The position numbers and the translations under genes were made by a program. This document shows, piece by piece, positions 12,753 through 57,400 of a stretch of DNA of 64,000 nucleotides. The stretch is from the human T2T-CHM13v2.0 reference genome, Homo sapiens. The DNA lies in assembly GCF_009914755.1 (NCBI RefSeq), contig NC_060939.1; one strand, given 5' to 3'. The number at the start of each line of letters is the position of its first letter. Within the stretch, counting starts at the first letter, position 1. The notes under the pieces are model-generated. The model worked only from the letters and a program-made list of their open reading frames with translations, was not told where the DNA came from and did not search any database.

Positions 12753-15620
12753 GGAGAATTCCAGCATGCACCAGGTTCACGGGACAGTGCGCGGTCACTG
12801 AAAGAAGAGTGGGGCGGGGAGGGTGGTGTGCGGCTGTGAGCACCTCTTGTGCTTGCTGGGAGATGTAGTCTTATAAAGACTCCCAGCCCTTTGGTCACAG
12901 GGCTGCAGCACCCCAATTCCAGCATACACCGGAATCAGAGACAGTGCGCGGCGGCAGAGGAAGAGGTAGAGCTGTGCGTGACTCGCTGGGCTTGATGGAA
13001 AATGTAATCTCATGAACACTCCTTAATGAACAGTGCGCCTCACTGGAGGAAAAGGCGGGGCTGTGCAGGCCTTGCTTTGCTTGCTGAGAGATGCTGTCTC
13101 ATAAACACTCCCAGCCCTTTGGTCACAGGGCTGCAGGACTACATTCCCATCATGCACCGGGATCAGGGATAGTGCATGTGCCTGGGTGAAGAGACACAGT
13201 TTTGCGCGCCTCCTTTGGCTTCCTGGGAGATGTAGTTTCATAAAGACACCCAGACTTTTCATTACAGGGCAGCAGGACTACAATCCCAGTATGCACCAAG
13301 ATCAAGGATAGTGCGCGTAACTGCAGAATGAGGCGGGATTGTGCACGCCTCGCTGGACTTGGTGGGATATGTATTCTCATAAACATACCCAACCCTTTGG
13401 TCATAGGGCGGGAAGACTACAATCCCAGCATGCACCTGGCTAAGAGACAGTGCCTGTCACTGGAGGAAGAGGCGGAAGACTACAATCCCAGCCAGCACCG
13501 GGCTCAGGGAAATTGTGCGTCAGTGGAGGAAGAGGCGGGGTTGTGTGCTACTCGCCAGGCTTGCTGGGAGTTGTATTCTCATAAACCCTCCCAGCCCTTT
13601 CATCACAGGGCTGAAGGACTACACTTCCAGCCCCAGCATGCACTGGGCTCAGGGACAGCGCGCGTCACTGGAGGAAGAGGGAGGGCTTTGCGCTTCTAGC
13701 TGTGATTTTTTGGGAGATGTAGTCTCATTAACGCTCCCAGCCCTTTGGTCACAGAGATCCAGGACTGCAATCCCAACATGCACCCAGCTCAGGGATAGTG
13801 CGCTAATCACTGCAGGAAGAGGCAGGGCTGTGTGCACCTCCTGGGCGTACTGGGAGATGTATTCTCATAAACACTCCCATCCCTTTGGTCATAAGCCTGC
13901 AGGACTACAATCCTAGCATGCACCCAGCTCAGTGACAGTGCGCTAGTCTAAGGAGAAAGAGGCAGGGCAGTGTGCGCCTTGCTGGGCTTCCTGGGAGATG
14001 TAGTCCCATGGCCTCTCCCTGCCCTATGGTCACAGTGCTATAAGACTACAATCCCAGCATGCACGGGGCTCAGGGAGAGTCCACATCACTGCAGAAAGAG
14101 GGGCAGGTTGTGCGCACCTCGCTGCGTTTGCTGGGAGATGTTGTTTCATAAAGACTCTCAGACCTTTTGTCACAGGGCTACAGGACTACAATCCCAGGAT
14201 GCATCGGGATCAAAGCAGTATGCGACACGGGGAAAAGATGCGGAGCTGTGTGCGTCTCCCTAGGTCTTCTGGGAGATGTGGTCTCTTGGCCCTTTGGTCA
14301 CAGGGCTGCAGGACTACAATGCCAGCATGCAGCGGGTTCATGGACAGTGTGTATCACTGGAGGAAGACGTGGAGCTGTGCGTGCCTCGCTGGGCTTGCAG
14401 GGAGATGCAGTCTCATAACTACCCCAGTCGTTTGGTCGCAGGGCTGCAGCAGTACAATTTCAGCATATCTCTGGCTCAGGGAGAGTGCACTAGTCACTGG
14501 AGGAAGAGGTAGGTCTGTGCGCACCTCTCTGGGCTTGCTGGGAGAGGTAGTCTCATAAACACTACCAGCCCTTTCATCACATCGCTGTAGGACTACAATT
14601 CCAGCATGCACGGGGCGCCGGGGCAGTCCGCCTCACTGGAGGAAGAGAAAGGCGTGTGAGCGCCTTGCTGGGCTTTCTGGGAGATGTTGTCTCTTTATTT
14701 CTCCCAGCCCTTTGGTCACAGGGCTTCAGGACTACAATCCCAGCATGCATCCTGCTCAGGGACAACGCGCGTCACTGTAGGAAGAGGTGGACCTGTGCTG
14801 TTCTCGCTATGCTTTTTGGGATACGTATTCTCGTAAACACTCCCAGCCCTTTGGTCACTGGGCTGCATCACTACAATCCCAGCATACATCGGGATCAGGG
14901 AGAGTGCGCTAATCAGTGGAGAAAGGGGCGAGGCTCTGCACACCTCGCTGGTCTTGCTGGGAGATGCAGTCTCATAAACACTCCCAGCCCTTTGGTCACT
15001 GGGCTGCAGCGCTACAATCCTAGCATGGACCGGGCGCAGGGAATGTGCGCGTCACTGGAGGAAGAGGCAGGGTTGTGCACGCCTCTCTGGGCTTGGTGGG
15101 AGTTGCAGTCTCATAAACACTCCCAGACCTCTCATCACCGGGCTGCAGGACTACAATCCCAGCATGCACCCGGCTCAGGGAGAGTGCGCATTACTGGAGG
15201 AAAAGTCTAGGCTGTGGATGCCTCCTTCTGCTTGCTGGGAGATGTAGTTTCATAAAGACTCCCAGAACTTGTGTCACAGGGCTGCAGGACTACCATCCCA
15301 TTATGCACTGGGGTCAGGGACACGGCCCGTCAGTGGAGAAAGAGGCGGGGCTGTGTGCGTCTCCTTCGGCTTGCTGGGAGATGTATTCTTATAAACACTC
15401 CCAGCCCTTTGGTCAAAGGGCTACAGGACTACAATCCCAGCATGTGCCAGTCTCGGGGGCGAGGTACAGGCCTGGAAGAAGGGGCAGAGTGGTACACGCC
15501 CCACCTAATATGCTGGGAGCTGTAGTCCGTTAACTGCTCTCAGCCTGTTTGTCGGTAGGCTTCAAAACTATAATCACAGCATGTACCGGGATCCGGGGTG
15601 CATAGCCCTGGAGGGAGGGG
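12753..15620 (+). repeat. ACRO1-type satellite array, ~20 units of ~140 bp
   Basis: gactacaatcccagcatgca-like motif recurs at ~13136, 13276, 13416, 13617, 13762, 13903, 14043, 14183, 14311, 14451, 14591, 14729, 14870, 15011, 15149, 15288, 15426 and 15566. The family name is from recall. Confidence 0.85.
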
Positions 15621-16431
15621 CACAGCGGTGTGGACTTCCCGGTGTCCAAAGCACTGCTGAGTTCTTATGCTATGCCGACTCTTTGCCAAGGAGAATGAGT
15701 ACATAGGTGGACCTAGAGGACAGGTCTGCGCTGAGCATTGAGGAGGGTATTACCCTACATAGGCACCTTACCTTTGCCCAAATCGGGCGGGTTGTCCTCA
15801 ACTGATTGGCCCTATCCTTCTCAAGTTCCTCTTTCAGCTGCACCCAGGGTTCTTTCCAGAGCATTGCGCCTTCTGCAGCCCAGGGCGCTGCCTTCTTTCC
15901 TAAACTGCTGTGGAAACTGTCCTGATGTCTGAGACACTGTCCATTGTGCCGCAGCCCTCTTTTTTCTCTAGCCAAGCCTCATGCTCAATAGCTTTTGAGA
16001 GAAATCTTCCACGTGGCCTGCTTATGAACAGCTTCAGAATTCTGTAGGGGGTGACAAGGTCTGTGGCTTCCTGGAAATGTCACTCTCAATGGCGCCTTTT
16101 TCACGAATGTGAAAGTTGAGGCATCAGGAAGGTTAATTATTGGGTTGCACAAAATCTGCTAAGAGCAAAGGAGAAAACCCCATTTCCGAGGCATGAGTCT
16201 TGTGAGCCATTTTCATCAACCCATTTAAGTGGACAAGCTCCAAAATGAAACCTGAAGCTGCTGACTATTTAGGCATTTTACACTTGAAATCATCGGTCTC
16301 ATCTCAAGTCACTCCTGACTTGCCAGTGTCTCAGAAACACAAATGGGACCGGATCCCTCAGGAGCAGATAGTGTTCCAGCTTTGTTGGAGCAACATTTAA
16401 GATGTGGAGCACTTGGGGTCGTTTGAAACCC

Positions 16432-19400
16432 GCTATCTTCAGTAGGGACTTTTACTTCTAGAGAACATGTGCATTTTGATTTTATCTGTCCTCAAACTGA
16501 ACTTTTGCTCATTTTAATAGTAAAAACACATTCCTAGGTGGAGACTTAAGATGCTAATGAGACATGCAATGTATGCACAAATATGTACAGTTAGTGCACA
16601 TGTGCACCCAGAAGACCACTCAAAACATGCTTACACTAACACTTCTTTCCACCTTCTTATGAATAATCGTGCAAAACCCCCAGAAGGAGGGTTTCTCCAG
16701 TAACAATTAATGGTGTCTCACTCTTATGAGCAGCCTGCCCTGGAATCTCTTTCTCAGAATGTACCGTCTATTCTGCACTTAATTTTCAAAGTAGTCTTTT
16801 CTTTTTTTGTGTGCAATAAATTACTCTATGCTGTACTTCTTTTGCTGTGTGTTTCTTGTTTAAATTCTTTTAAACTAAGAAAATAAGAATCAAGGTATTA
16901 CATCAGCCATCAACATTTCTTTTGCCATGACCTGGAGAGAGGTCTGTCCGCTTCACTGATTTCACTTTCCCTTTACTTGCCGTGAATACTGTGGCACTTC
17001 CAGACTACCTGGTTAACTATCGCTGGTTCTTCCAGCACTGTTTCACTAAAGTTCTGGGGAAACCCTGTCCCTTTAGGCTTTATGCATTTCCCAGCTCCTT
17101 GAAATTGTTCTTCAACAGGCTTTCTTTGCTGAACAAAAGATGCACAGTCATGGATATGCCCAGTCATAGGGATTGAATCTGAGCATTGCAGGTGTTATAA
17201 TTGGGCATCATAAATGGCAAACCACTGAATTAGGGAAAGGCTTGTCAGCCAGACATCTGCTCCCCAGCGAGCAGTGGGGGTCATCTCGGCAGGGCTGGAG
17301 ATGTCCAGCGCTGGTGAGAGCTAGGACGGTGCATGGCAAATGCCTATGACCTCCTAGAGCTTCAGTTAATGGGGTTTCAAGGGGATGAGTTGGACAACTT
17401 GGTGGTTCCACTTGGCTCATGGGGCTGCCCACAGCCTCCTGGACTTTAGTACATGTTCTGTCGTTTGCAGGATTCTCTCGGCACCATGGGAATCACTTCC
17501 TCTACTGTCACTGAAACACACCTGGGATGTATATTTAAAAATTGAAACAGCTTTTGGCTAAATGAAGCAAAAAAACAATTATCTTCTTTTGTAAAACTAT
17601 TTAGCCTGCATACAGATTAGCTGACAAAACATGGCTGGAGAATGAGACTGTGAAATTTAACACCATCATACAGCTAGATCTTTTCTGTAGTAATCAGGGA
17701 AAATGGTCTGAAGTATCCTATGTGCAAGACTTTCTGGCCCGACAACAAAACCCAGCTCCATGCAGCACCTGTGGGCTAAAGCCTAGTAAGCCACAAAGCC
17801 CCTCAGATCCATTAGAAGATCATTTGTTTTATGGGCAAGTGACCCCAGACCCCACAGCCTAATAGCTCCAGATAGGGGCCCTCAGAGGCCTACACCTGCT
17901 TTAGAATCCCCAGCGTCCCCACACTATCAGAGTCTTCTGTAGAATCTAAGCTTGTTTCATCTCCTCCTTATGCTCCTCTATCAGCCTTTGCCAGTTACAA
18001 TAGAGACCAGTCCAGCTGCAGTTACTCACAGTGGAGCTTCACACCATGCAGGGCCAGAGAATTTGATCCGCTTACAGAAAGTCTCAAATGGAGAGAGGAC
18101 CATCAGAGTGCTTGTTCTCTTCCCAATAAATGATCTAATCCAATGTAAGCAACAGCTCTGATGGCTCTCAGACAACTTCAGCGCGTTTACTGAAGCCTTC
18201 CAGTCTCTAACTTTGACCACCATTCAACTTTACCATCCATAAATGGACCCAATGACTGCTGCCAACTCAGCTGCACAAAACTTTTTCTTATTTGCGAAAA
18301 ATAGAAAAGACTTAAAACTTTTGCTGCTTTCACCATTTTAAAGCAGAATACTTTTGCAGCACAAATGTCACCATAAGGTGGATCCTTGGGAATCCAGTAC
18401 AAACTATCTCAGAAAATCTCAGTGTGTCCCCAACAGGCAGCAGAGGGCCTCAATAGACTTCAACAACGTCTGGACTCCATGGCCTCTGTATTCCAACAAA
18501 ATCAAAGAGCCTGGGATCTTCTCCCAGCCAAGCAAAGAGGAACAGGTTTATATCTAAAAGAAGAATGCTGTTTTTTGAGATCAATCAGTCTGGTTTATTC
18601 CAAGAAAATATTAATAATATCATCACCCAGGCAGACAAAATTGAATCTCTAGGAACTTCCATGGGAACATGAAAGCAATGTCCATTGCCTGCCTTGCTCT
18701 CTTTAATAGTCCCCGTCATTATTATATTTTCAACTTCTACTTTTGTTCCAATTTTGTTTAAAATGTTAACTGATTTCCTGCTATGTTGCTTGTGGCAGCT
18801 CCATGTTTGCATGATGGTTTGCAAGGCTTTCAATCTTTGGCTGCCAACATCTTCCCACTGGTTCCACGAACGACATGGTTTACACCCTGTTAGATCACAC
18901 AGGAAGAAACTTTAAGGCCCAGGCTAGGCAGAAGTAACACCCACTCAGCAGGAAACAGCTCCAGAAAAAGTGGTCTAACCCCTCAACCTCCAATATGGTT
19001 ATTGCCCTAAAATCTCTTAGGGGGAAATTGAGGCAGAATAGATAGTACAGAAAATGACCATGATCTCAGGATACAGAAACCATGGTGACTGTACAGCCAA
19101 CACAATAAGCCGTAGCATTCGCATTGTAATTGGGCTTATTCGAGCAAAGCTATCCTCACTAAGGACTTTCTGTTCTAGAGAGCATGTGTATTTTTATTTT
19201 ACCTGCCCTCAAACTTAAATTTTGCTTATTTTAATAGCAAAAAATGCACCCCCTAGCCAGGCACGGTGGCTTATACCTCTACTCTCAGCACTTTGGGAGG
19301 CTGAGGAAGATGGATCACTTCAAACTAGAAGCTCGAGGCTAGACTGGCCAACATAGAGAAACCCCGTCTAAATTAAAAATACAAAAATTAGTAGGGTATG

Positions 19401-19935
19401 ATGGTGCATGCCTGTAATCCCAGATACTCAGGAGGCAGAGGCACGAGCATGGCTTGAACTCAGGAGGCAGAGGTTGCAGTGAGCAGAGATCACACCACTG
19501 CACCCCAGCTTGGGCAACACGGCGAGACTCTGTCTCAAACAAACAAACAAATAAACACACAGAAATACACTCCTGGGTGGAAATATAAGATGCTAATGAG
19601 ACATGCAACATATGAACAAGCATGTACAGCTACTGCGCATATGCACCCAGAATACCACAGAGAACATGTTTACTAGCAACTCCTCTTCCCTCCTCCTTAT
19701 TAATAATAATGTAAAACTCCCATAAAGGGGTTTCTCCAGCGACAATCCACACTGTCTCACTCTTATGAGCAGTCCGCCCTGGAATATCTCTCTCAGGGTG
19801 TACTGTATTCTGCACTTAACTTTCAAATATTTTCTTTTCCAATAAATTATGCTGTACTTTTTTTCTTTGTGTCTCTTGTTTAAATTCTTAAAATCTAGGA
19901 AGACAAGAACAGAGGTATCACATCAGTTGTCAACA
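16432..19935 (+). mobile_element. Internally deleted ERV1 provirus (MER50-like): truncated 5' LTR ~16432-16915, gag and env remnants, 3' LTR 19029-19935
   Basis: Two homologous LTRs (agatgctaatgagacatgcaa...aataaatta...catca..caaca); gag MA-like NTIIQLDLFCSNQGKWSEVSYVQ; env ISD/CX6CC-like QNQRAWDLL..KQRGTGLYLKEECCF; polypurine tract tagggggaaat before tgaggcag. Confidence 0.85.
19255..19563 (+). mobile_element. Alu inserted in the 3' LTR
   Basis: gccaggcacggtggc...gagactctgtctc followed by an (AAAC)n tail; LTR homology resumes after it. Confidence 0.9.
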
Positions 19936-22900
19936 CAGCAATAAGTCAGCCTCCTTCTTGTAAGCATAGCCCATGCAGAAAAGGAGAGTCGCATCACCTA
20001 GGTGCTGGATCCAGAGGTATGTCACAATTTATCCCATGCACAAAGTTAAGGTCATTGAGGAGAGTCGTATTAAATAATTTCTGGGCCCAGGGATTTGTCA
20101 CAACAGCTCCTGTGAGAAGAGATCAGGCAGCATAATCACATAACCGGTGTGCTGGGCACAGCGATAAGCCACCTTTCATCTGTGGGCATGACCCAGGCAA
20201 GAAAGAAGAGTCACGGCATTTAGGTGCTTGCTGCAGAGGTACATAACAATCTCTCTTATGGGCAAAGCTCAGGTAAGAGAGAAGAGTCAAATCTCCAAGG
20301 TGATTCATGTAGAAATTTGTCACAAGAGACTTTTTAGGCAGGGCCCATGTTGGATCTTCTTATCTTCCAGAAGTTAGGTACAGGGATATGTCAGAATACC
20401 CAAAATACACAGGACTCAGTCAATAAAGAAGAGCCACATCACCCAGGTGCTGGGTCTAGACATATGTCACATCTCTTTTATGGGGAAAGCTCAGGTAAAA
20501 AAGGAAGGTCACATCAAATAGTTGATAGACCCAGAGATATGTCACATTGCCTCCTGCTTGAAGTGTCTAGGCCAAAGACTCACATCACATTGGTGCTAGG
20601 CCTGTGTTCATATATAAACATTCAACTAGAGTTGAAATGGTGGCTCGTTTCTAAACCCTGCTTATAGGCAAGGGATGAGTCTCCTATCCTGACATAGTTA
20701 ATTGTAATGATGTTGACTCTCATCCCTGGGCTTAATGCTACAAGTATGATCATGGGTCCCTACCAATAGGAAGGTCTCAAAGTTGATTACAACTCTCATT
20801 CATACAGTATAGGGCCATTGGGTAGTACACAGAGAGTGCTAACTGGGCCGAGCACACAGGTGAGACTGTGACACTCATATGCACACCCAGCCAACAGTAA
20901 CTATTGTCATCCTCTCACGGGAACACAAGTCAGTCTGCAGAGGAATTGAGGCTCTCATGTGCAAATCCAGTCTGGTGTTGAGATGGTTATTCGTGGGCTT
21001 AGATCCAACATACAGGAGGTGTTGAATGTCATGCCTACCACTGAGACAGCTGTGGGATTGTTAATCTAATTCCTGGACCATTCTGCAGCTTCCATTGTGA
21101 AATTTCCCAGTGCCTAGCACCTAAGTGACTTGACGGGCTCGCATGGACCCAGCCCACAGATGGGATATTAACATATTGCTGGATCCAGCACATTGAGGAT
21201 GTAACTCTATTCTCCTTCCTTGGCACTGCCCACAGTGAGCAGTTTGACATATCGCTAGACCTTACACTCAGGTGATGTGAGTCTCCTCTTCTGCCTTGGC
21301 GCTGCCCTCAGGAAGCGTTGTTACATATAGCTTGGCCTCGCATCCAGGTTATGTGACTCTCCGGCTTGTGCACTGCCCATATGGGACACTGTGTTAATAT
21401 TGCTGGGTCCACTACTCAGGCGATGTAAACCAACAGCCTGGGCCCTGCCTTACAGGGGCATTGTGACATATCTCTGTGCTCATCAGCCTGGTAATGTGAT
21501 TCTCTTCTCCTGCCTGGTCCCTTTACACAGAAGGGATTGTGACACGTTGCTGGGCTTAGCACCAAGTTGATGTTGATGTGAATCTTCTGCCTGGATCGAG
21601 TTCACAGAAGGCATAGTGACATACCTCTGGGTGCATCACCTATTTGATGAGACTCTCCTCTCTTACCTGAGCATTGCCCATAAGAGAGATTGTGACATAT
21701 CCCTGGGTCTAGCACCGGGATGATGTGAATTCTCCCTGCCTGGGTCATGCCCACAGAAGGAAGTGTGACTTATAACTGGGCACAGCACAGGGGTGATGTG
21801 ATTCTTCTGCCTGGTCCCTACATAGAGGAGTCATTGTCAAATGCCTCTGGGCCCATCATCTAGACTATGTGACTCTCTACTTCTTCCTAGGGCCTGCTCG
21901 CATAAGGATTGTGACATATTACATGCCCTACATCATGTGACTTTTCTCTCATGTCTGGGCTCCGTCTTGGAGATGAATGTGACACATACCTAGGCCTAGC
22001 CCCTAGGTTCTGTAACTTCTCGTTTTTCAAAATCCTACCCACCAGGGGCATTGAAACATCTCTCTGGGCACTTCACTTAGGTAATGTTACCCTGTTGCCT
22101 GGAGTGTCCCCTCTGGGGGGTATGGTGACATATTGCTGGACACAGTACCTATGTGATATTACTCTCCTTTCTTGCCTGGGCCTTGTATACATTATGTATT
22201 CTAATATATGGCTGGGTTCAATGACTAGGTGATGCAACTCTTATGCATAGACCCTACCCACAGGGACATTATGACATTTCTTTAGCTCTGACTCTCCTCT
22301 TTTTCCTTAGCCCTGCCAAAAAGGGAGGTGGTGACATATAACTGGACCTAGCAACCAGCTAATATGAGTCTCCTCTTTTGCCTGCACCCAGCATATTTTA
22401 GGTGTTGTATCATATCCTTTGTCTCAACACCTGCAGGATGAAATGCTCCTGCCTGAGCCCAGCCATCTGTCAAAATTGTCATTCTCCCACACGAACATGG
22501 ACCATAATTGAGGTTCTGAAACTCACACCCAGAGGCAGTCAAAAGTTGGAAAATTGGCTCTAATAAGTGGATATTGTCTGCAAGTGGGCTTGTGACTCCC
22601 TGACCAAGATCCAAAACACTTGTGAGGCTGTGAGTCCACTAAGATAACTCCGTTTTCAAAAGGGATTAAGGCTCTCATGGAAAAAACCCATTCCTCCATT
22701 GAGATTGTGACTTATGCACATAGATGCAACATACAGGAGGCGTTCACTCTCATACCCAGAACCGGAACTTATGTGGGATTGTTAATCTCATCCATGGACC
22801 TTCCTGCAGGTGTGATTCTGACGTACACCTCTAGCCAGCTCCTGAGTGATTTGACATTTTTGCCTGGGTGTAGCCCACAGATGAGATTGTGATATATCTC

Positions 22901-24700: not shown

Positions 24701-24836
24701 ACCAGCGTGGCTCAGTGGCTCACACCTGTAATCACAGCACTTTGGGAAGCCGAGGCGGACAGATCATGAGATCAGGAGATCAAGACCATCCTGGCCAACA
24801 TGGTGAAACCACGTCTCTCTACTATTTATGATTATG

Positions 24837-24878
<42 letters not shown>

Positions 24879-25342: not shown

Positions 25343-25345
25343 ACC

Positions 25346-25695
<350 letters not shown>

Positions 25696-40003: not shown

Positions 40004-40406
40004 AGTAATGTTTATACAGGCAAATGAACAGAGAATTATGTTGGCAATAGACGTGTGGTTGATTCATATTTGACTGATTCATATTCAACTGTACACAGTT
40101 GAATATAGTCATAAAAAATTATAATATATAGGCAGAATCTAAAAACACAATTAAATAATGTAAGGCAGCCTATCCTAACAAGGAAATACAAGAATATATA
40201 ATATTAGAAAATAAAATTAAATAAACATTAGCCTGTGAAATACCGAATAAAGAAAGCATGCAACGGAAGAAGACTCTTTCTAGATAACTAGCATGTTCAA
40301 CCATAACTGGGCTCCCATAAAGAGCAGATTTTGAATTCTTAGCATATGGTTAGAGTAACAAAATTGCACAACAAATACATTATAATCTCCCATAAAGAGC
40401 ATTTAG

Positions 40407-40945
<539 letters not shown>

Positions 40946-43097: not shown

Positions 43098-46019
<2,922 letters not shown>

Positions 46020-47275: not shown

Positions 47276-47630
<355 letters not shown>

Positions 47631-48314
47631 GAGAGATTGGTATTATGTAATGGTGAGATGGATTAACTTTCCAGGAATCTATAACAATAATTTATAAATC
47701 ATATATATATAATTTGAAAAATCTGCAAAAATATACCATTGAGATTTTGACAAAAATTACATTAAATTTTTGTATTACTATAAATAGCACTGACATCTTT
47801 CTTTCTTTTTTTTTTTTTTTAGAGACAGAGTTTCTTTCTCTCAGGCTGGAGGGCAGTGGCACGATATCTCGATAGGCTCACTTCAACCTCCTCCTCCCAG
47901 GTTCAACTGATTCTCGTCTTTCAAATATGTAAAACAAATATTGACAGAAGTCAAGCAAGAAATACATAGCAACACAACAACGGTGGACTTCAAGACTCCA
48001 CTTCAGTAATGACTAGAATAGTCAGAAGTAATATCAGTAAGAAAGCCAAACCTGAACATTATAGACCCAACCAGCATTTACAGAACTCTCCAATTTAAAG
48101 GAGCAAAATCTGCAATATTCTAAATCACACATGGTACATTCTGTTAGGATACATGTCTTATTAAATTTAAGAAAACCGAAGCCATACAATGTAAATGAAA
48201 CTAGAATTCAAAAGCAAGAAAATGTGGCAAATATGTAAATAAGAGGAAATTAAGCAAAATCTTTCATATAGTCTTGCTCAAGTGTCAGGTGATTTAATAT
48301 TGTTAAGATGTCAG

Positions 48315-48610
48315 GGCCGGCATGAGGCTCATGCCTGTAATCCTAGGACTTTGGGAGGCCAAAGTGGGTGGATCACCTGAGATCAGAAGTTTGAGACTAG
48401 CCTAGTGAATATGGCAAAACCCTATCTCTACTAAAAATACAAAAGTTAGCTAGACATGATGGTGCACGACTGCAATCCCAGCTACTCTGGTGGCTGAGAC
48501 TGGAGAATTGCTTGAACCTGGGAAGCGGAGACTGCAGTGAGCACATCTCGCACCCCTGCCCTTCAGCCTGAGTGACTCACTAAAACTCCATCTCCAAAAA
48601 AAAAAAAAAA
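48315..48610 (+). mobile_element. Alu
   Basis: ggccggcatgaggctcatgcctgtaatcc...actccatctcc followed by poly(A). Confidence 0.9.
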
Positions 48611-50569
48611 TGTTGCCAGTACTACTCATGATGATATAAAAATGTAAGGTAATTTTTGTCAAAATCCCAATGGTATTTTTTTTGCAGAATTTTTGTGTAT
48701 AATTCTAAACGTTGCTTAGGAAAGGTGACTAGCCAAACACCCTTTAAAAAGAACAAAGAGGTATTACATTTTCTGATTCAAAATCATGATACAAAGCTAC
48801 AAAAATAAAAACAATATGGTATTGCCACAAAAACAGATACATAGATGACGAAACAGAATAGAGATCCCAGAAATAAACCCTTGCATATGTGATAAAATAA
48901 TCTTCCATAAGCTTTCCATGACCACACAATAGAAAAATAAGAATCTATTTAACAAAGAATTTTCCAAATTGAATATTTACAGAGAAAAAAATAAAATTGG
49001 ATGCTTCCTTTGTATCATATATAAAAAGAAAAGTTTTTTAAATGAATTCAATACTTAAACATAAAACCTAATAAAATTCTTAGAAGTAAACATAAGGGAA
49101 AAGTTTATGACATAAGTCTTAAAACTCTTTCCTTAAGTTTGACATCAAATTCATAAGCAACAAGGAAAAGAACAACGACCAAAAAAAGGGACTACATTAA
49201 GCTTCAACTATTCTACACATCAAATAAAACATTTAGTGCCATACAAACGTCACCTAATAAGTGGGTGAAAGCTAGGCATGGTGTCTCATGCCTTTAATTC
49301 TACAACTTTAGGAGGCCAAGGCAGAACAATCACTTGAGGCCAAAAGTTTGAGACTAGCCATGAAAACATAGCAAGACCCTGTCTTGTATAGGGTTATATA
49401 TATGCATACATACATACATAAAACAAAAAAGAGTAAAAATATTTTCTAATCACATATTTGGTAGGTGTTAATTTTCAAAATATATAAATTCCTAAAACTC
49501 AACAACAAAAAAAGTTAATAACTTGATTTAGAATGGCACATGTTTGAAATGACTTTCTCCAAAGAAGACATAGAAATGACTAGGCATTTAAAAGGATACT
49601 CGACAACTCTCTTCTAGAAAAATACAAAGAAAAGTCACAATAATCTATCACATCAAACCTATTTTTAAAATAGTATGAAAGCTCTTCAAAAAATTTAAAA
49701 TGAGATTATTTTACAATCCAGCAAACCCCATTCTGGCTATGTATTTAAAATATACAACACATGATCCGGAAGAGATATTTGCACACCCAAATTTATTGCA
49801 GCATTACTAACACAAGCCAAAAGGCAGAAACAACCCAGCTGTCCCTTGACCAATGAAGAGATTAATAACAAGTGGCACATACACAAAGTCGAATATTATT
49901 CAGTCTTTAAAAAGTCACATTATATGATTATTCTTGAGAATATCACGTTAACTGAAATAAGCCAGGAACAAAGTGACAGTCTATGATTCCATTCATAATC
50001 AGGTATCTTAAGTAGACAAACTCATAGGAAAAAAATAGTTAGAATGGTGTTTGTCAAGGACTGAAGAGATGGTAAAATGGGCAATTGTCTTAAAAGACAT
50101 TTAATGTTAGTTTTGCAAGACATAGAAGTTCTACAGATCTTTTGCATAACTATGTGAATGTACTTAACGCTAATGAAATATACACTTAAAAAGAATTAAA
50201 ATGGTAAATTTTACATTATGTGTTTTTACCACAATCGCAGTTTTTAAAAGGAAAAATATGGACTTATAAAGCTTTCCAAAAATTAAATTTTGTTCACAAA
50301 AGATTTTCTCTCACACAAAGGAAGTATAGATTTATAATTAAACTCATTGTGAAATTAAGATTATTTCAATGACTATTCATCCTCACAAGATAAGACAACC
50401 ACTGAAAATCAGCCAAAAAATATGGAAGATAAGCCAGGAGCAAAGTTGGGGACATATTTATAGAGACAAACACATATATAATTTAATTTTGAAAACGTAT
50501 GACCGATTTATATTTTAATTAAACCCAACATTAGTTTCCTGAGTGAAATTTGGTTTTCAGTTTGGGCAA

Positions 50570-51131
50570 ATGAAGCCCTTTCTGTGGTTAAAAGGATTCT
50601 TTCTTCTCCGTTTCTTCATATGGACCTGTGCTGGGGATTGGTCAGCTGTTCAAGTGCAATGCACTCAGTTTTGGTTCTGTGCCAGGATTAAACCTACGAT
50701 ATTTCACATTTCATATATAAACCCCGATGAAGTGTTTCTAGGAGATGGCTGCCTCATAACCTATATTTTGCCAAATGTTTACTATGAATTTCACCACCAT
50801 CCTCTTGAAGGTGGTATTGTAACTAAAACTCTTCAGGACATTCTACTTAAAACTAAAATCACGTATATCTCAAGAAACTCCTTTCTGATTTGAAATGCCT
50901 CTGTCATGTATTCTCTGCAATCAGCATCCTCTTTCAAAGAAAGTAGAAAGGACAGATGAGGAAACTGATAGTGTTACTGCATGGGAGACAGAGGTGAGGA
51001 TACACATGGCGGATGAAAACATGGAAGTTATTTCTACAGCACGATCTTGTAAGTGTCTGACTGCTATGCTCCCTTGTATATCAAATGATGTACCTTTATT
51101 GCAAGAGAAGATAGTGCGCTGTTTACCTTGA
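50570..51131 (+). pseudogene. OOSP1P: OOSP1 (oocyte-secreted protein 1, PLAC1/ZP-N family) processed pseudogene
   Basis: From ATG 50570: MKPFLWLKGFFLLRFFIWTCAGDWSAVQVQCTQFWFCARIKPTIF..NPDEVFLGDGC..LPNVYYEF..GIVT..LLKTKI.YISR, closely matching OOSP1 as recalled; contiguous; frameshift near 50890 before EMPLSC. Confidence 0.85.
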
Positions 51132-51574
51132 CATTGAGAGGCAATTTTGAATTTCTGTCGTGATTGCTTAGGACTGAGGATTTAATGTGCTATTTTGTGG
51201 AAATCTTAGAAGCAGTAATGGGATTTAATGATCTTAACTATCATCCATCTGAAAAATCTAACGCGATTTTAAATCAAATTGCCGGCTGCTTCCACCGTTC
51301 CCTTTTTAAACCAGGAGCTGCCGTTGCTTTTAACATTATGAAGTTGAATCTATGAATAGTTTGTACTATTAACATTTTTTTAAAAATCCACATTGACTTG
51401 AAGTGTACAGGCAGAGTTGGAAATTATAACATCCAAAGTTATAATACATAAGTAAAACCCAAAATAAAATCAACTGCTGCCCTGGAACCTATTCTAAATA
51501 ATCGAGACAGTAATATGGAATTGTAAAGAAAAATAAGAAACATATTTACTCATAAAATCTTGCAAGCAAAGTTT

Positions 51575-53610
<2,036 letters not shown>

Positions 53611-55799
53611 GACCAGCCAAGACTTTTACTTTATAAAGATATTTATGATGTTTTCTTTTCTTTTTACAGTATGTATTGCATTTATAATTGGAGATACAAA
53701 AAAAGGTGACTGTTACTGTTTGACAGCAAGGCAGTAGTATTATCTTCATCAATATTTGCAACTTCATTCACAGGAACCTGTAAGAGAAAGCCCAGACAAA
53801 ACTTTAAGGCAAAGAAGTTACACTTGTAAAAAATGAGAGGACTATTTTTTTATAATAACAAATATTCCAGGTGAGGACTGGTCAGGATCTACCACTGCTC
53901 CATCTCACTTGATAAGTCTCATGCCTGCCAGGGTAAGAAGGAGCAGAGAGAAGGACAAATGCCAGTGAGTTTCCTCTCCCACTAAGGATCTGTTTGTCAA
54001 GTTTCCTACCATCAAGTGGAAGATGTACTAAAAATAAAATGTACCCTTGCAGATGCTAGCAGAGAGGCACAAAATAGAAAAGGAGGTAAGCCCACACATT
54101 GTGGAGAAAGAGATCCAACTTAAGATTCAAAATGCACCAGAAAGCTGTGTAAAGTTAATAAAATTACTCAAAATCTTGGAACATTTGTTTCCTCACCTGT
54201 AAAATGGGGATCATGTGCCTACTTCACAAGTTGTTTTGACAGTTAAATTCACAGAGATATTTAATAGAGCCTGCTATGGCAAGTGTTCACATTAACAAAG
54301 TAGTATCAAACTTCAAAATATGGGAAAGGTATTTTGAATAATGTCTATGAGGCCAAGGACAACATGCCCAGCTTCATAATCAATCCCAGCCACATTACAC
54401 TGAGGAGATCTACAGGGCAACTATATTTCTTCAACAAATTCCATTAGAGAGGAAGAGTGTGTAGTCTGAAAACATGACACAAATGTGACCAGTGTACAGT
54501 GACTTAGGTAGTCGGGGGTGGAGTCCCTACATATTCTCTGAATTGCAGTTACACAGTGAGTTCCCAGGAAACAAATGGAATAGAAAAGGTGACACAAAAT
54601 ATACTACCATAAATGGGGTGAGCATAGCAGGTTCACAACCACAAATGTAAGCAGGAGACTCAAATCACCAGGAGCACCTAGATCTGTGAACAGCAGCTTG
54701 TGGTGGCATCAGGTTCAACTTTCTGAGACCACCGGTGTGGGCAGTGTCTTTGCAGGCACATACTCGGCAGCAGTGTATCTGAAGACAGATCTCAAGGCTC
54801 TTCTCTTCATTAATTATTAAGATGATAGATGATGGATACCCTCACGTTACAACATCCCCACTAACGCTGTGGACAAGTGAATTCAGAAACCCCCACCTAA
54901 ATACACAGTGAAGAGTAGGATGAGAATACTGCAGGATAGGTTAGGAATGCAGGCATTCGACCCCATAGAGTCTATTTAAAATAAGAGAAGGGCCCTAGTA
55001 TTGTGCTGTGGTCCTCCTATATATAGTTCTTTATTTTTCCAATTTCATAAAGGCCATACAGTTTTTCTTCCTTTCTTCACAAATGTGCTGATGAACCCAT
55101 GAGTAATTCATCCTGAAGGGGTTAATTCCTCATAAAGTACAGTAACGTGATTCAATTGCTATGATGAGGTTTTTCAGGATTTTTTTATAGTGTCCCATAC
55201 TCACCGATCACAAGTGAAAATTATAAGAACATGTAATTTGAACAAAGTATTCTTTTCACATAGAGAAATACACAGGTTTGTACAGATTAGATGCATCATC
55301 AAAGTTGGTAACATCTGGGAACAAAAGGAACTATCCTGAGGACATAAGGAACTTAGGAACGTCGATTATTAAGAGGCTACCTGCAAGTGGAACTTCTGGG
55401 TTTTCATTGTCTAGACAGAAAAATTTAACTGATAAGCCCCAGTATATTAAGGTACATCCCCAACGGCTGTGGGGGATCAACTTTCCATCCAAAGCAGAGA
55501 TGTAAAACATGAATGACTTCAAATGCGGCTCAAGTGCTCTGCACCTTGAAAGTCATCCCCACAAAGCTGGAGCACCACCTGTTCCTGAGGGATGAGGTCA
55601 CCAACTGCTTTTTTGAGACACTCGTCAGTCAGGACTCAGTTGAGATGAGGCTGGTGATTTCAACTGTAAAATATCTAAACCATCGTCTTTAGGTAGATTC
55701 TTATGCCTGGGAATTGTGGTTTTCTCCTCTGCTGTTAGCAGATCCTGAGTAACCCAAGAAATACCCGCTCTCACCCGTCAAGTTCTATATCACAAGAAA

Positions 55800-57400
55800 G
55801 GCGCTGCAGACGGTGACATTTTCACGAAGGAGCCACAGCCCGCATCACCCCCTGAAAGCTCTGAAGTTGCGCACGGGTGGGTCACGCAGCAGGTGGATGT
55901 CTCAGTTCCCATAGAGTTTAGCAGAGCAGGCGGCTCCCTGGGCTGGAAGAGGTGCGATGCTCTGGAAACCCCCCGCGGGTGTGTATGTGAGAGGACACCG
56001 AGATGTTCAGCGGGCTGTTCAGTGAGGACCAGACCCCTCCGATTTGAGCAAGGGAGGTGCACTTCGCAGGGTCACACCGTCCTCATCGCCCAGCCTAGAC
56101 CTGCCCCTCAAGTCCTTCTGCGGACTCCCTTGGCGAGGGGGTGGCACAGAATCAGCATGTGGCATCGCTTAGGAAAGGACGAGGTCCACACCGCCCTGTC
56201 CCTCCCTCCAGGGCTGCGCACCACGGGGGAGGACAGACAGCGCATGCTGGTTTTGTAGTTAGCAGGTCGGCGACCAATGGGCTGGAAACCGTTAAGACAC
56301 CAAAACTCCCAGCACTCCTAGCTAGGGACGCGCCTCCCTATCCTTCGTTTCCATACTACACACCGCCCCCAAACCCAGCGCATGCTGAGATTGTAGTCCG
56401 TTAGCCTCGCGACCAATGGGCTGGAAATACTGAAAGGACTATGACTCCCAGGATGCCTTGCGAGGTACCCGCCGTCCCGATCCTTCCTCTAGGGCTGCGC
56501 ACCGCCCCCAAGCCCAACGCATGCTGGGATTGTAGTCAGGTAATCCTGGGACCAACTGACTGGAAACTGTTAAGAGACCATAACTCCCAGCACGCCTGGC
56601 TAAGGACGCACCTCCCTATCCTTCCCTTCAGTGCTACACACCGCCTCGAAGCCCGGTGGCTGCTGGGATTTTAGTCTGCAGGCCGGGGGCCATCGCTGGA
56701 AACCATTAAGAGACCATAACTCCCAGCATCCCTGGCCAGGGACGCGCCTCTCTATCCTTCCCTCCAGCGTTACACACCGCCCCAATCCCGGTGCATGCTG
56801 GCATTGTAGTTCGGTAGCCTTGCGATCAACGTGCTGGAAACTGTTTAAGGACTATGACTCCCAGGACGCCTTGCGAGGGACCCACCCTGTTGACCCTTCC
56901 TCCAGGGCTGGGAACCTCCCTTAAGCCCAGCGCATGCTGGGATCATAGTCCGACTGCCGCGACAGAAAGGCTGGGAGTGGATCTGAGACTACAGTTCCAA
57001 CACTACGGGGAAAATTTCATCTTCTCTGAGACTACAGTTCCAACACTGAGGGGATAATTTCATCTTCTCCTCCGCCCCTCCATGTTTCCAGTGCAATTCC
57101 GCCCTGCTGAGGGGAGCCTATCTGTTCCCAAACTTCTGCGTGCGAGGAGACAGCGTGGCCAGGGCAGGTGGTCTCACTTGTAATTGTGACACAGTCTCCC
57201 CACGTGCCACTTGTACGACTATTTGTCCCTGAAGTTTGATTTCTCTCTGACAAGACAGAGCCCGGGAGCCTCCAACAGCCTGCCCAGCGTTGCCGTAAAG
57301 CTTGCTCTCGGGGACCTGGGCGCGCCCAGACCTTTGCAGGGCCCCTCCCTCAGCCCCGACCCTTCTCCTCGCCCCTCCCCTGCCACGCCCCTTTCGACAT
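55800..57400. promoter_or_regulatory. CpG-rich island, putative promoter with clustered ZNF143/THAP11-type motifs and GC boxes
   Basis: High GC and CpG against an AT-rich background; gactatgactcccag (twice), gaccataactcccag (twice), reverse gactacaatcccagcatg, ccgccc boxes and ccaat motifs. Activity is inferred only. Confidence 0.6.
56225..57070 (-). repeat. Short diverged ACRO1-like array (~6 units, ~138 bp), inverted relative to the main array
   Basis: catgctgggattgtagtc-like motif at ~56243, 56382, 56520, 56660, 56794 and 56933. Confidence 0.8.

What the first reader, a model, noticed from the sequence alone, without database searches (positions are those of the whole stretch)
14800..57070. 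Ancient inverted paralogy: satellite plus flank (~14.8-16.43 kb) mirrors the CpG island (55.5-57.07 kb)
Seen: beyond the repeat units, ~800 bp of non-satellite flank aligns in reverse. Examples: 15604 agccctggagggagggggcacagcggtgtggac vs reverse ~56185-56216 agccctggagggagggacagggcggtgtggac; 15853 ttccagagcattgcgccttctgcagcccaggg vs ttccagagcatcgcacctcttccagcccaggg; 16154 atctgctaagagcaaaggagaaaacc vs atctgctaacagcagaggagaaaacc; 16353 atccctcaggagcagatagtgttccagctttgt vs atccctcaggaacaggtggtgctccagctttgt. Identity is roughly 70% by eye. One copy has ~20 units; the other has ~6 diverged units in a CpG island. Inference: both descend from one promoter-like locus and ACRO1 arose by tandem amplification of its ZNF143-type module, so the window may hold both a satellite and a low-copy relative of its progenitor.
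Basis: partly seen in the sequence, partly recalled or inferred. Interest (0 to 1): 0.8.

Follow-up and report, generated by a model that had tools for sequence, protein, structure and literature searches.

The report
Satellite born from RPP40 gene promoter
Two inverted stretches beside the chromosome 15 ribosomal RNA genes are old, broken copies of the start of the RPP40 gene, and one of them multiplied a short promoter-type module into the 139-base ACRO138 repeat array.

Summary
Window 14943-16415 aligns in reverse with 56878-55531 (65-77% identity, E 1e-16 to 4e-35). The paralogy is longer than reported: 10361-16415 against 59117-55531.

The window lies in the distal junction (DJ) next to the rDNA. 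The long array is the published ACRO138 block, not shown to be ACRO1.

The flank is not an interspersed repeat. It is intron 1 of RPP40 (RNase P/MRP subunit p40, chr6). The CpG-rich copy is an unspliced partial RPP40 pseudogene:
- pseudo-exon 1 at 57296-57177
- five full and two partial units
- intron 1
- pseudo-exons 2 and 3

In RPP40 the unit occurs once, just after exon 1 inside the gene's CpG island. It carries two inverted ACTACAACTCCCAG (M4/SBS2, ZNF143/THAP11-type) motifs.

Both window copies belong to a family of roughly 30 further loci on chr7, 16, X, 19, 9 and 20, with 0-4 full units each. ACRO138 (18 full units here, 24 hits in the other DJ arm) is one lineage's expansion.

The CpG copy is a sister paralogue, not the direct progenitor. 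Factor binding is inferred, not tested. I found no paper linking RPP40 to ACRO138.

The parts
8367..10650 (+). 3' half of an L1 element lying upstream of the left copy. It includes the start of the reverse-transcriptase domain and an A-rich 3' end near 10640-10650.
   Evidence: Pfam RVT_1 matches window:8367-8636:+ at E 1.4e-4, below Pfam's curated cut-off. Calling it L1 type and placing its 3' end are my reading by eye. A chr19 family copy matches 8803-9629 at 67.7%.
10361..11228 (+). Upstream part of the paralogy: the L1 3' end and an AT-rich L1-like stretch shared with 59117-57926.
   Evidence: Self-BLAST gives 10361-10709 vs 59117-58752 (72.2%, E 2e-44) and 10699-11228 vs 58471-57926 (67.0%, E 5e-46). 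I read the second stretch as L1 ORF1-like by eye, but Pfam found nothing there.
12757..15640 (+). ACRO138 array (proximal DJ block). It comprises 22 unit hits, 18 of them full length, and ends in a half unit (model positions 1-77) at the flank.
   Evidence: TRF period 139. nhmmer hit list. About 90% identical to the other DJ arm and near-identical on chr13, 14, 21 and 22. Position matches the published ACRO138 block at 138 kb. The RefSeq lncRNA LOC124907540 has its first exon at 13906-14508 (hub annotation).
15641..16430 (+). Flank of the left copy, derived from RPP40 intron 1. Family homology stops at about 16430.
   Evidence: BLAST to 56220-55531. A profile of the five ACRO138-type flanks hits RPP40 intron 1 at c6 8530-8672 (E 8e-8) and 7909-8137 (E 3e-4).
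57926..59117 (-). Upstream L1-derived part of the right copy, interrupted by an Alu at about 58472-58750.
   Evidence: The same segment lies upstream of the chr7, 16, 19 and 20 copies.
57177..57296 (-). Pseudo-exon 1 of RPP40. The start codon now reads ACG, and the GTGAG splice donor is kept at 57176.
   Evidence: DNA alignment with chr6 RPP40 exon 1 and the chr9, chr19 and chr7 copies. The chr6 exon 1 equals PDB 6ahr_L residues 1-43. A protein-level search with the window's pseudo-exon found nothing at E<=1.
56179..56999 (-). Short array of 5 full and 2 partial 139-bp units. It ends in the same half unit (model positions 1-77) at the flank.
   Evidence: nhmmer. TRF period 139/278. 99-100% identical on all five acrocentric chromosomes.
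55531..56178 (-). Flank of the right copy, derived from RPP40 intron 1.
   Evidence: Window 55681-55318 matches c6 8527-8881 at 65%. The family flank profile hits c6 7894-8143 (E 7e-21) and 8499-8680 (E 2e-15).
55071..55222 (-). Pseudo-exon 2 of RPP40, broken by stops and frameshifts.
   Evidence: It lies inside 55282-54187, which matches c6 9207-10308 (66.6% over 1137, E 4e-63). The chr6 exon 2 reading frame sits at c6 9269-9409.
53990..55070 (-). Sequence derived from RPP40 intron 2.
   Evidence: Colinear with the chr7 and chrX copies.
53715..53780 (-). Pseudo-exon 3 of RPP40, with intron sequence kept on both sides (genomic, unspliced form). It is followed by an Alu that appears to sit at the same site as in chr6.
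   Evidence: Pairwise alignment with c6 10700-11420. The chr6 exon matches Pfam Ribonuc_P_40 positions 16-40 at 27 bits. A protein search with the window's pseudo-exon found nothing at E<=1.

Best explanation
Both stretches are ancient, unspliced partial duplicates of the 5' end of RPP40, the gene for RNase P/MRP protein subunit p40 on chr6p25. They now lie in convergent orientation in the rDNA distal junction (DJ).

In the parent gene, a ~120-140 bp module sits about 120 bases into intron 1, inside the promoter CpG island. It carries two inverted M4/SBS2-type motifs (ACTACAACTCCCAG...), the kind bound by ZNF143 and THAP11/HCFC1.

A founder duplicate contained about 1 kb of upstream sequence, exon 1, intron 1, exon 2, intron 2 and exon 3, with L1 fragments just upstream. 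It spread to roughly 30 further loci. In each lineage the module was duplicated in tandem a few times.

In one lineage it grew to about 20 units and the copy was cut off inside intron 1. This lineage is ACRO138. It was later doubled by the DJ inverted repeat and copied to chr20, 3p12, 4q35 and 10q26.

The right-hand copy kept pseudo-exons 1-3, made its own five to six units, and kept part of its CpG richness.

Shown: the homologies, their colinearity, and the trees.
Inferred: the arrays act as multi-site platforms for promoter factors, which would account for the published open, promoter-like chromatin and transcripts at ACRO138.
For: Position in the DJ:
- On chr13 the three homologous blocks lie about 93-95, 136-139 and 295-298 kb from the estimated rDNA boundary. 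I placed that boundary about 10.6 kb before the first 5.8S gene at 5,780,910.
- ACRO138 blocks are published at 138 and 290/297 kb.

Parent gene:
- An ORF at chr6:4.87 Mb is identical to PDB 6ahr_L 'Ribonuclease P protein subunit p40' over residues 1-43 (E 6e-23).
- Two further exons match Pfam Ribonuc_P_40 at 27 and 44.8 bits, against a cut-off of 24.

Colinearity of window and chr6:
- Pseudo-exon 1 aligns with chr6 exon 1.
- Units match c6 7741-7875.
- 55681-55318, 55282-54187, 54132-53990 and 53915-53321 match c6 8527-11316 at 65-71%, E down to 3e-77.
- Family flank profiles hit intron 1.

The unit:
- The ACRO138 unit model matches chr6 once, with positions 71-138 followed directly by positions 1-51.
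- The chr6 module is closer to each array (67.4% to array 1, 70.9% to the short array) than the arrays are to each other (63.2%).

Family:
- Three queries hit the same loci on chr7, 16, X, 19, 9, 20 and 6 at 65-83% identity.
- In 9 of the arrays examined the unit hit next to the flank stops at model position 77-81.

Trees:
- The ACRO138-type flanks form a clade with 100/100 support and a stem of 0.17. The CpG-rich copy is a separate branch of 0.16-0.17.
- 48 of 53 ACRO138 units form one clade (94/76). 5 of 6 short-array units form their own clade (97/83).
- Units pair one-to-one between the two DJ arms; the mean best match is 89.4%.

Motifs:
- The M4 pattern occurs 10 times in the window against 0.41 expected, 8 of them in the arrays.
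- TCCCAGNATGC occurs 9 times against 0.15 expected, all in the arrays.
- The motif columns are the best conserved in the unit: 0.90 and 0.82 against 0.73-0.74 elsewhere.
- Motif definitions come from PMC3627581 (passages).
Against: - The ACRO138 flank does not hit chr6 by plain BLAST. The link needs profiles (E 8e-8 and 3e-4) or goes through the other copies.
- In a global alignment the chr6 flank is only 43-56% identical to the family, and its branch is 0.91. Rooting with chr6 therefore leaves a polytomy.
- About 335 profile positions of the flank have no counterpart in chr6.
- The window's pseudo-exons 1 and 3 gave no protein match at E<=1.
- The AU test does not reject grouping the short-array units with the ACRO138 bulk (p 0.185).
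- All family units have one base fewer than RPP40 between ACTACA and TCCCAG in the forward motif. Only 6 units of array 1 and 2 units of array 2 keep an exact M4 match.
- No binding, chromatin or expression data were examined here.
- The L1 pieces upstream of the family are absent from the 7.5 kb upstream of RPP40, so the route of the first duplication is unclear.
Confidence: 0.85

Rival explanations
1. The flank homology reflects two insertions of a known interspersed repeat (an LTR, an L1 5' UTR with monomers, or another transposon), not a duplication of a locus.
For: The family has many dispersed copies at 65-83% identity with a star-like tree. An L1 3' half lies directly upstream in the copies examined. 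The published ACRO composite is described as ACRO1+L1PA10+MER21B+L1MB8 (passage).
Against: The core is colinear with RPP40 exon 1, intron 1, exon 2, intron 2 and exon 3. The flank query found only 49 first-look candidates, all at family loci. Pfam found no L1 ORF1/ORF2 or retroviral domains downstream of the units. No poly-A tail or target-site duplication is visible at the ends of the isolated chr9 copy. No repeat library was available here.
Confidence: 0.04
2. The family is RPP40-derived but spread mainly by retrotransposition: read-through transcripts from the upstream L1 (3' transduction) or partly spliced RPP40-like transcripts, rather than DNA-level segmental duplication.
For: The phylogeny is star-like. 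An L1 3' half with an A-rich end lies directly upstream in the family. The chrX copy has RPP40 exons 3 and 4 fused in one reading frame (Pfam positions 16-55), whereas chr6 has a 653-bp intron between them. Some copies lie outside classical duplication hubs, at chr9:21.45, chrX:51.76 and chr19:30.32 Mb. Copies end at different 3' points, equivalent to window 55240 or about 53900.
Against: Introns 1 and 2 and about 1 kb of promoter-upstream sequence are retained. No poly-A or target-site duplication was seen at the chr9 copy. Most copies cluster in pericentromeric chr7 and chr16 and on acrocentric arms, which is typical of DNA-level duplication. Only one copy shows a spliced junction.
Confidence: 0.25
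3. One reading: the CpG-rich short array is the low-copy relative closest to the progenitor of the satellite, and the satellite is ACRO1.
For: The two copies lie about 40 kb apart in the same DJ. Both end in the same half unit. The short-array units lie outside the ACRO138 clade in the best tree.
Against: The flank tree puts the CpG-rich copy on its own branch of a polytomy. It is no nearer to ACRO138 (71.4%) than most chr7, 16, 19, X and 9 copies (68-75%). The chr6 RPP40 module is the ancestor-like sequence. The period is 139, the location is the DJ, and the literature separates ACRO138 from ACRO1.
Confidence: 0.1

Closest known systems
ACRO138 repeat blocks of the rDNA distal junction (Floutsakou et al. 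2013, PMC3847771; passages and section 9 read)
   Same: A tandem repeat of 138-139 bp in two blocks, one in each arm of the DJ inverted repeat, about 138 and 290/297 kb from the rDNA and present on all five acrocentric chromosomes. The paper reports open chromatin and transcripts there. The window's left array is the proximal block.
   Different: In the passages I read, the paper calls the repeat novel and gives no origin. It does not relate it to the site about 94 kb from the rDNA or to RPP40. Its Supplemental Fig. 10 on ACRO138 was not available to me.
RPP40 (RNase P/MRP protein subunit p40) 5' region, chr6p25
   Same: Colinear with the right-hand copy from about 1 kb upstream through exon 3. 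It holds one unit-equivalent with two inverted M4/SBS2-type motifs in its CpG island.
   Different: RPP40 has a single module, intact exons, a strong CpG island (GC 0.55-0.67, o/e 0.5-1.05) and canonical motif spacing. The window copies have 7 and 23 unit hits, broken exons or none, weaker CpG content and a one-base deletion in the forward motif.
ACRO1 satellite / 6-kb ACRO composite (Boots et al. 2020, PMC7714431; preprint 10.64898/2025.12.22.696095; passages read)
   Same: A primate-specific tandem repeat of about 140-150 bp enriched on acrocentric arms and embedded in a multi-kb composite that includes L1 pieces.
   Different: ACRO1 has a 147-bp unit, forms homogenised 6-kb arrays, and is reported at the chr4 pericentromere and on chr1 and chr2. 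None of these loci share the unit.
Unprocessed (duplicated) partial pseudogenes in pericentromeric and acrocentric duplication zones
   Same: A partial gene copy with introns kept, spread among pericentromeres of chr7, 16 and 20 and acrocentric arms.
   Different: At about 70% identity it is far below the usual 90% threshold for segmental duplications. One intronic promoter-proximal module has become a satellite.
Tandem promoter monomers, for example in mouse L1 5' UTRs (recalled, not examined here)
   Same: A working analogy: head-to-tail repeats of a short promoter module that multiply factor-binding sites.
   Different: Those belong to a mobile element and drive its own transcription. Here the module comes from a host housekeeping gene, and its activity is not shown.

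Membership tests
ACRO138 (DJ repeat) | Tandem repeat with a unit of about 138 bp | tested here: met
   TRF period 139, with 14.1 plus 3.2 copies. The unit model has 139 positions.
ACRO138 (DJ repeat) | Two blocks about 138 and 290-297 kb distal to the rDNA, one per arm of the inverted repeat, on all five acrocentric chromosomes | tested here: met
   On chr13 the blocks lie about 136-139 and 295-298 kb from the estimated rDNA boundary. They are in opposite orientation and about 90% identical. Near-identical copies sit on chr13, 14, 15, 21 and 22.
ACRO1 satellite | 147-bp unit within a homogenised 6-kb composite (ACRO1, L1PA10, MER21B, L1MB8) | tested here: not met
   The period is 139. Units within the array are only 73.4% alike. 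There is no 6-kb tandem structure in the window.
ACRO1 satellite | Sequence match to the ACRO1 consensus | not testable with these tools
   No Dfam/Repbase library was held. Searches with units found no arrays at the chr4 pericentromere or on chr1 or chr2.
Unprocessed RPP40 pseudogene | Colinear homology to parent exons and the introns between them | tested here: met
   Right-hand copy: pseudo-exon 1; intron 1, exon 2, intron 2 and exon 3 with intron on both sides. Left copy: only the units and part of intron 1.
Unprocessed RPP40 pseudogene | Parent locus is RPP40 | tested here: met
   PDB 6ahr_L residues 1-43 are identical (E 6e-23). Pfam Ribonuc_P_40 scores 27 and 44.8 bits.
Unprocessed RPP40 pseudogene | Loss of coding capacity | tested here: met
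   The start codon reads ACG. Exon 2 is split over three frames with stops. No protein hit at E<=1.
CpG island (GC >=0.5, observed/expected CpG >=0.6, >=200 bp; criteria recalled) | Composition thresholds | tested here: inconclusive
   55700-57430 has GC 0.577 and o/e 0.59. Of the nine 200-bp windows from 55700 to 57499, four reach o/e 0.6 or more, up to 0.82. Array 1 has o/e 0.40.
ZNF143/THAP11 site (M4 ACTAYRNNNCCCR; SBS2; TBS ACTACANNTCCCA) | Sequence match to the published motifs | tested here: met
   chr6 has two inverted ACTACAACTCCCAG motifs. The window has 8 M4 matches in the arrays against 0.41 expected window-wide and 9 SBS-core matches against 0.15. The forward motif of all family units lacks one base of the TBS spacing.
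ZNF143/THAP11 site (M4 ACTAYRNNNCCCR; SBS2; TBS ACTACANNTCCCA) | Occupancy by the factors | not testable with these tools
   No ChIP data here. Paper searches for ZNF143 with 'distal junction' (0 papers), 'acrocentric' (7, none relevant among those read) and GL000220 (2, not about the DJ).
Interspersed repeat (transposon) | Defined termini with target-site duplication or poly-A; own coding or LTR structure | tested here: not met
   The chr9 copy ends without poly-A or duplication. The core is gene-derived. No transposon domains lie downstream of the units.
Segmental duplication (>=1 kb, >=90% identity; criterion recalled) | Identity threshold between the two window copies | tested here: not met
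   65-77% identity. The two DJ arms (91%) and the chr3/4 copies (90-91%) do reach the threshold; the chr20 copy (89%) falls just short.

The most novel reading that the evidence does not exclude
The distal junction has taken over a housekeeping promoter module. Under this reading the ACRO138 blocks, and the RPP40-derived site about 94 kb from the rDNA, are arrays of ZNF143/THAP11-HCFC1 sites. They would set up the regularly spaced promoter-like chromatin of the DJ and contribute to its looping or perinucleolar anchoring of the rDNA. A wider version holds that the 6-kb ACRO composite, whose published parts list also includes L1 pieces next to a ~147-bp repeat, is a further, more diverged member of the same RPP40-derived family.
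Probability: 0.2. Interest if true: 0.8.

Novelty: new member of a known kind. Interest (0 to 1): 0.55.

Why it matters
ACRO138 blocks are among the few landmarks of the distal junction, the conserved region that anchors rDNA arrays at the nucleolar edge. They are reported to carry open, promoter-like chromatin and transcripts, yet the papers I could read give them no origin.

Tracing the unit to a promoter-proximal module of RPP40 with two ZNF143/THAP11-type motifs offers a concrete reason for that chromatin. It also names the factors to test.

The same analysis shows that the TF-rich site about 94 kb from the rDNA is a partial RPP40 pseudogene. This site matches the '6-8 kb region of GL000220' noted in PMC10097779 (passage).

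More generally, this is a clean example of a satellite arising from a single-copy gene regulatory element, with the single-copy parent, low-copy intermediates and expanded arrays all present in one genome.

Tried and rejected
1. L1 5' UTR with monomers. Pfam found no ORF1 or ORF2 in 47 reading frames downstream of the right copy, or in 48 downstream of the left copy. The only hit was a retroviral env fragment at 18377-18649.

2. ERV LTR with U3 repeats. Rejected because homology continues on both sides of the array and is colinear with RPP40.

3. Small-RNA gene promoter. Rfam over the whole window gave only a Y RNA match at 8545-8645.

4. My by-eye reading of 57540-58800 as L1 ORF1-like. Pfam gave nothing for 19 frames there, so it stays a by-eye reading.

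5. Protein-level confirmation of the window's pseudo-exons 1 and 3. No PDB match at E<=1. My first PDB search with chr6 used the wrong frame and found nothing; the right frame gave the match.

6. Rooting the flank tree with chr6. The chr6 branch is too long (0.91), and the root falls on a polytomy.

7. AU tests on units. None of the following was rejected:
- short-array units grouped with the inner ACRO138 bulk, p 0.185
- all ACRO138 units as one clade, p 0.494
- all short-array units as one clade, p 0.469
The unit tree alone therefore decides little.

8. Relation to ACRO1. Three genome searches found no other arrays, but the tool skips very common words and scores only the best candidates.

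9. Literature searches:
- ACRO138: 6 papers
- RPP40 with acrocentric: 2 papers, judged from title and abstract only to be general reviews
- RPP40 with ZNF143: 0 papers
- ZNF143 with 'distal junction': 0 papers
- RPP40P: only RPP40P2 at 13q21.2 seen

Full report
**1. The observation**

Both regions were read and compared by BLASTN. Three colinear minus-strand matches join them:
- 14943-15919 to 56878-55903 (64.8% over 1000 columns, E 4e-35)
- 16046-16197 to 55853-55700 (71.6%, E 1e-16)
- 16268-16415 to 55679-55531 (77.2%, E 2e-27)

TRF finds period 139 at 13032-15444 and at 56238-56952.

A unit profile built from the long array gives 23 hits on the left, 18 of them nearly full length. They lie at 12757-15640, plus a fragment at 11682-11716. 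On the right it gives 7 hits, 5 of them full, at 56179-56999. Both arrays end at the flank in the same half unit (model positions 1-77).

A wider self-comparison shows the paralogy is longer than reported. 10361-10709 matches 59117-58752 (72%), and 10699-11228 matches 58471-57926 (67%).

The 'CpG island' is borderline. 55700-57430 has GC 0.577 and CpG observed/expected 0.59. The long array has 0.554 and 0.40. The window as a whole has 0.42 and 0.28.

**2. Where the window lies**

A search of the window's own genome with the right-hand flank found near-identical copies on chr13, 14, 15, 21 and 22. The long array has a near-identical copy on each of these chromosomes. A second copy, about 90% identical and in opposite orientation, lies about 159 kb away.

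On chr13 the first 5.8S rRNA gene is at 5,780,910. I allowed about 6.6 kb from the start of the 45S transcript to 5.8S (recalled). I added about 4 kb from the junction to the 45S start (passage of PMC10097779).

On that estimate the three blocks lie about 93-95, 136-139 and 295-298 kb from the rDNA. Floutsakou et al. 2013 (PMC3847771; passages and section 9) report the following:
- a 138-bp repeat, ACRO138, in two blocks at 138 and 290/297 kb, within the arms of the DJ inverted repeat
- open chromatin and transcripts at those blocks
- promoter-like chromatin at about 45-kb intervals

The long array is therefore the proximal ACRO138 block.

The papers I read list ACRO1 (147 bp, part of a 6-kb composite) and ACRO138 as different repeats. 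The right-hand copy corresponds to the '6-8 kb region of GL000220', which PMC10097779 notes as rich in TF sites (passage). That mapping is my arithmetic.

**3. The flank belongs to a multi-copy family**

The flank query gave 74 matches at E<=0.001, from 49 first-look candidates of which 40 were scored. Besides the DJ copies, these lie on:
- chr7 (56.7, 57.6 and 64.2-65.5 Mb)
- chr16 (32.6-34.4 and 38.6-38.9 Mb)
- chrX (51.76-51.81 Mb)
- chr9 (21.45 and 132.5 Mb)
- chr19 (20.19 and 30.32 Mb)
- chr3 (75.69 Mb)

Identity is 65-83%.

Queries from downstream (53900-55520) and upstream (57060-58470) of the right copy hit the same loci. They add chr19:19.91, chr20:25.81 and chr6:4.87 Mb.

The right copy is colinear with a chr7 copy over window 53932-58472. 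The left copy's homology stops at 16430.

The 18-base unit core, with up to one mismatch, occurs 168 times in the genome against 0 for the reversed control. All 100 listed places are at these loci except a single one-mismatch site on chr8; 68 more were not listed.

My tally is roughly 30 loci outside the DJ. This is a lower bound, because the tool scores only the best candidates.

**4. Transposon readings tried first**

Pfam on stop-free frames found no L1 or retroviral domains downstream of either flank, apart from an env fragment at 18377-18649.

Upstream of the left copy, 8367-8636 matches the start of a reverse-transcriptase domain (E 1.4e-4, below Pfam's cut-off). Its translation reads like L1 ORF2 to my eye. 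An A-rich L1-type 3' end lies near 10640-10650.

I read the AT-rich stretch after it, shared by both copies, as L1 ORF1-like. Pfam did not confirm this. These L1 pieces are part of what was duplicated, but they are not the core.

**5. The parent is RPP40**

One reading frame in the chrX copy matched Pfam Ribonuc_P_40 (E 8e-5). That pointed to the chr6 hit.

The chr6 locus (L039-L041) has the following features:
- An exon identical to residues 1-43 of PDB 6ahr_L, 'Ribonuclease P protein subunit p40' (E 6e-23).
- Two later exons matching Ribonuc_P_40 at 27 and 44.8 bits, against a cut-off of 24.
- A further exon whose frame is visible at c6 9269-9409.
- A strong CpG island over exon 1 and the start of intron 1: GC 0.55-0.67, o/e 0.5-1.05.

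About 120 bases into intron 1 lies one unit-equivalent. The ACRO138 unit model matches it with positions 71-138 followed directly by positions 1-51. It holds ACTACAACTCCCAG on both strands.

These fit the published motifs: M4 (ACTAYRNNNCCCR), the THAP11 site (ACTACANNTCCCA) and the 25-bp ZNF143 SBS2. The sources are PMC3627581 (passages) and PMC5006282 (abstract start).

**6. Colinearity of the right-hand copy with RPP40**

- Pseudo-exon 1 lies at 57296-57177. ATG has become ACG, and the GTGAG donor is kept.
- The units match c6 7741-7875.
- 55681-55318 matches c6 8527-8881 (65%).
- 55282-54187 matches c6 9207-10308 (66.6% over 1137, E 4e-63). This stretch contains pseudo-exon 2 at about 55222-55071.
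- 54132-53990 matches c6 10333-10477.
- 53915-53321 matches c6 10745-11316 (70.7%, E 3e-77). This stretch contains pseudo-exon 3 at about 53780-53715, with intron sequence on both sides, and an Alu that appears to share its upstream junction with chr6.

A profile of all 23 family flanks hits RPP40 intron 1 at c6 7894-8143 (E 7e-21) and 8499-8680 (E 2e-15). A profile of the five ACRO138-type flanks alone hits 8530-8672 (E 8e-8) and 7909-8137 (E 3e-4).

Against this reading:
- Plain BLAST of the left flank to chr6 finds only the units.
- About 335 profile positions of the flank have no chr6 counterpart.
- chr6 carries an extra Alu, with its own target-site duplication, that the family lacks.
- The window's pseudo-exons 1 and 3 found no protein match at E<=1.

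**7. Relationships within the family**

Flank tree (IQ-TREE, 23 rows, 835 columns):
- The ACRO138-type flanks form one clade with 100/100 support on a stem of 0.17. They come from the window, the other DJ arm, chr20:31.07, chr3 and chr4.
- The CpG-rich copy is a separate branch of 0.17.
- It sits in a star-like radiation with four to five other groups from chr7, X, 19 and 16/9.

Adding chr6 as outgroup gave a branch of 0.91 and an unresolved root. The left flank is 71.4% identical to the right flank, 68-75% identical to the other old copies, and 89-91% identical to its own clade.

Unit tree rooted on the chr6 module (94 rows, 135 columns):
- 48 of 53 ACRO138 units form one clade (94/76). An inner clade of 43 has support 97/96.
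- The five flank-proximal units form their own clade (100/100) on the basal polytomy.
- 5 of 6 short-array units form a clade (97/83), and the sixth sits on the polytomy.
- No short-array unit falls inside the ACRO138 clade.

The AU test, however, does not reject holding them with the inner ACRO138 bulk (log-likelihood 14.9 lower, p 0.185). The separate origin of the two arrays therefore rests mainly on the flank tree.

Units pair one-to-one between the two DJ arms, with a mean best match of 89.4%. Units within the long array are only 73.4% alike. The expansion is thus old and predates the inverted repeat.

The chr6 module is closer to each array than the arrays are to each other. It is 67.4% identical to the long array, 70.9% to the short array and 69.6% to the other copies; the two arrays share 63.2%. 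This is expected if chr6 stayed near the ancestral state.

Other family copies carry 0-4 full units.

**8. Motifs**

- Across 73 units the columns of the forward motif (positions 1-18) and the reverse motif (positions 80-103) are the best conserved. Mean agreement with the consensus is 0.90 and 0.82, against 0.73-0.74 elsewhere.
- In the window the M4 pattern occurs 10 times against 0.41 expected. Eight are in the arrays: 6 in the long array and 2 in the short one.
- TCCCAGNATGC occurs 9 times against 0.15 expected, all in the arrays.
- All family units have one base fewer than RPP40 between ACTACA and TCCCAG in the forward motif. That departs from the THAP11-site spacing but leaves the ZNF143 core.
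- Most units no longer match the motifs exactly.

**9. How it most likely works**

Shown:
- Descent from RPP40.
- Independent tandem growth of the module.
- Old age of both arrays.
- Better preservation of the motif columns.

From the literature: open, promoter-like chromatin and short transcripts at ACRO138.

From the hub's annotation:
- A predicted lncRNA starts inside the long array (13906, + strand).
- Another runs through the right copy on the - strand.
- Both follow the RPP40-sense direction.

Inferred: the arrays act as clusters of sites for ZNF143 and partners, which would keep these spots open. I put the descent at about 0.85 and the factor-binding reading at perhaps 0.5.

How the family spread is open. 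DNA-level duplication fits the retained introns and promoter. A retrotransposition route is suggested by three things: the L1 half directly upstream, the star-like tree, and a chrX copy in which exons 3 and 4 are fused.

**10. Novelty**

Paper searches gave:
- ACRO138: 6 papers
- RPP40 with acrocentric: 2, general reviews judging by title and abstract
- RPP40 with ZNF143: 0
- ZNF143 with 'distal junction': 0
- ZNF143 with acrocentric: 7, none relevant among those read
- GL000220 with ZNF143: 2, not about the DJ
- RPP40P: only RPP40P2 at 13q21.2 seen

None links ACRO138 or the DJ to RPP40.

The library lacks most subscription journals and the supplements named above, and genome browsers may already show pseudogene tracks here.

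The kinds involved are all known: a partial unprocessed pseudogene, an old duplicon, and a satellite arising from unique sequence. I therefore file this as a new member of a known kind, of moderate interest to people working on nucleolar organiser regions.

Noticed in passing
window 8545-8645 (+): Match to Rfam Y_RNA (RF00019) at 42.2 bits against a gathering score of 38, sitting inside the L1 ORF2-like frame. Probably a Y RNA retro-pseudogene.
   Followed up: no
window 18377-18649 (+): A reading frame matching Pfam TLV_coat (retroviral envelope, transmembrane part; E 1.2e-9), about 2 kb past the point where the left copy's RPP40 homology stops. An ERV insertion may have cut that copy. Observed only.
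   Followed up: no
window 11238-11687 and 12282-12690: Two direct copies of about 450 bp that look like an LTR with internal short repeats (LTR12-like by recall). They lie between the L1 pieces and the long array, replacing the promoter and exon 1 that the right copy keeps. A stray unit fragment sits at 11682-11716.
   Followed up: partly
L031 (chrX:51.76 Mb) 2101-2241 (-): This family copy keeps RPP40 introns 1 and 2 but has exons 3 and 4 fused in frame (Pfam Ribonuc_P_40 positions 16-55). That suggests a partly spliced retrocopy. Three such copies lie within about 50 kb on chrX.
   Followed up: partly
L032 (chr9:21.45 Mb) 3540-4535: This copy joins pseudo-exon 1 directly to the middle of the flank. 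It lacks all units and about 1.18 kb present in the window copy. It ends near the intron 1/exon 2 boundary, where the chr16 copies also end.
   Followed up: partly
chr4:193.42, chr10:134.60, chr3:75.69, chr20:31.07, chr22:4.31/6.17/9.35, chr21:2.57 and chr14:4.35 Mb: ACRO138-type arrays at 82-87% identity to the window; the three fetched (chr3, chr4, chr20) hold 3-6 full units. Several lie at positions I recall as the FRG2/D4Z4-flanking duplications of 4q35, 10q26 and 3p12. That association is recalled, not checked.
   Followed up: no
window 56982-57069: A 43-bp direct duplication (2.0 copies, 93% match) between pseudo-exon 1 and the first unit of the short array.
   Followed up: no
chr6 RPP40 intron 2 (c6 10438-10752; L039): A minisatellite of about 48 bp, seen as a repeating peptide pattern in all three frames. 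It is absent or much shorter in the chrX copy.
   Followed up: no
window 21198-21362: A tandem repeat of period 76 with 2.2 copies (TRF score 181). It is unrelated to the finding.
   Followed up: no
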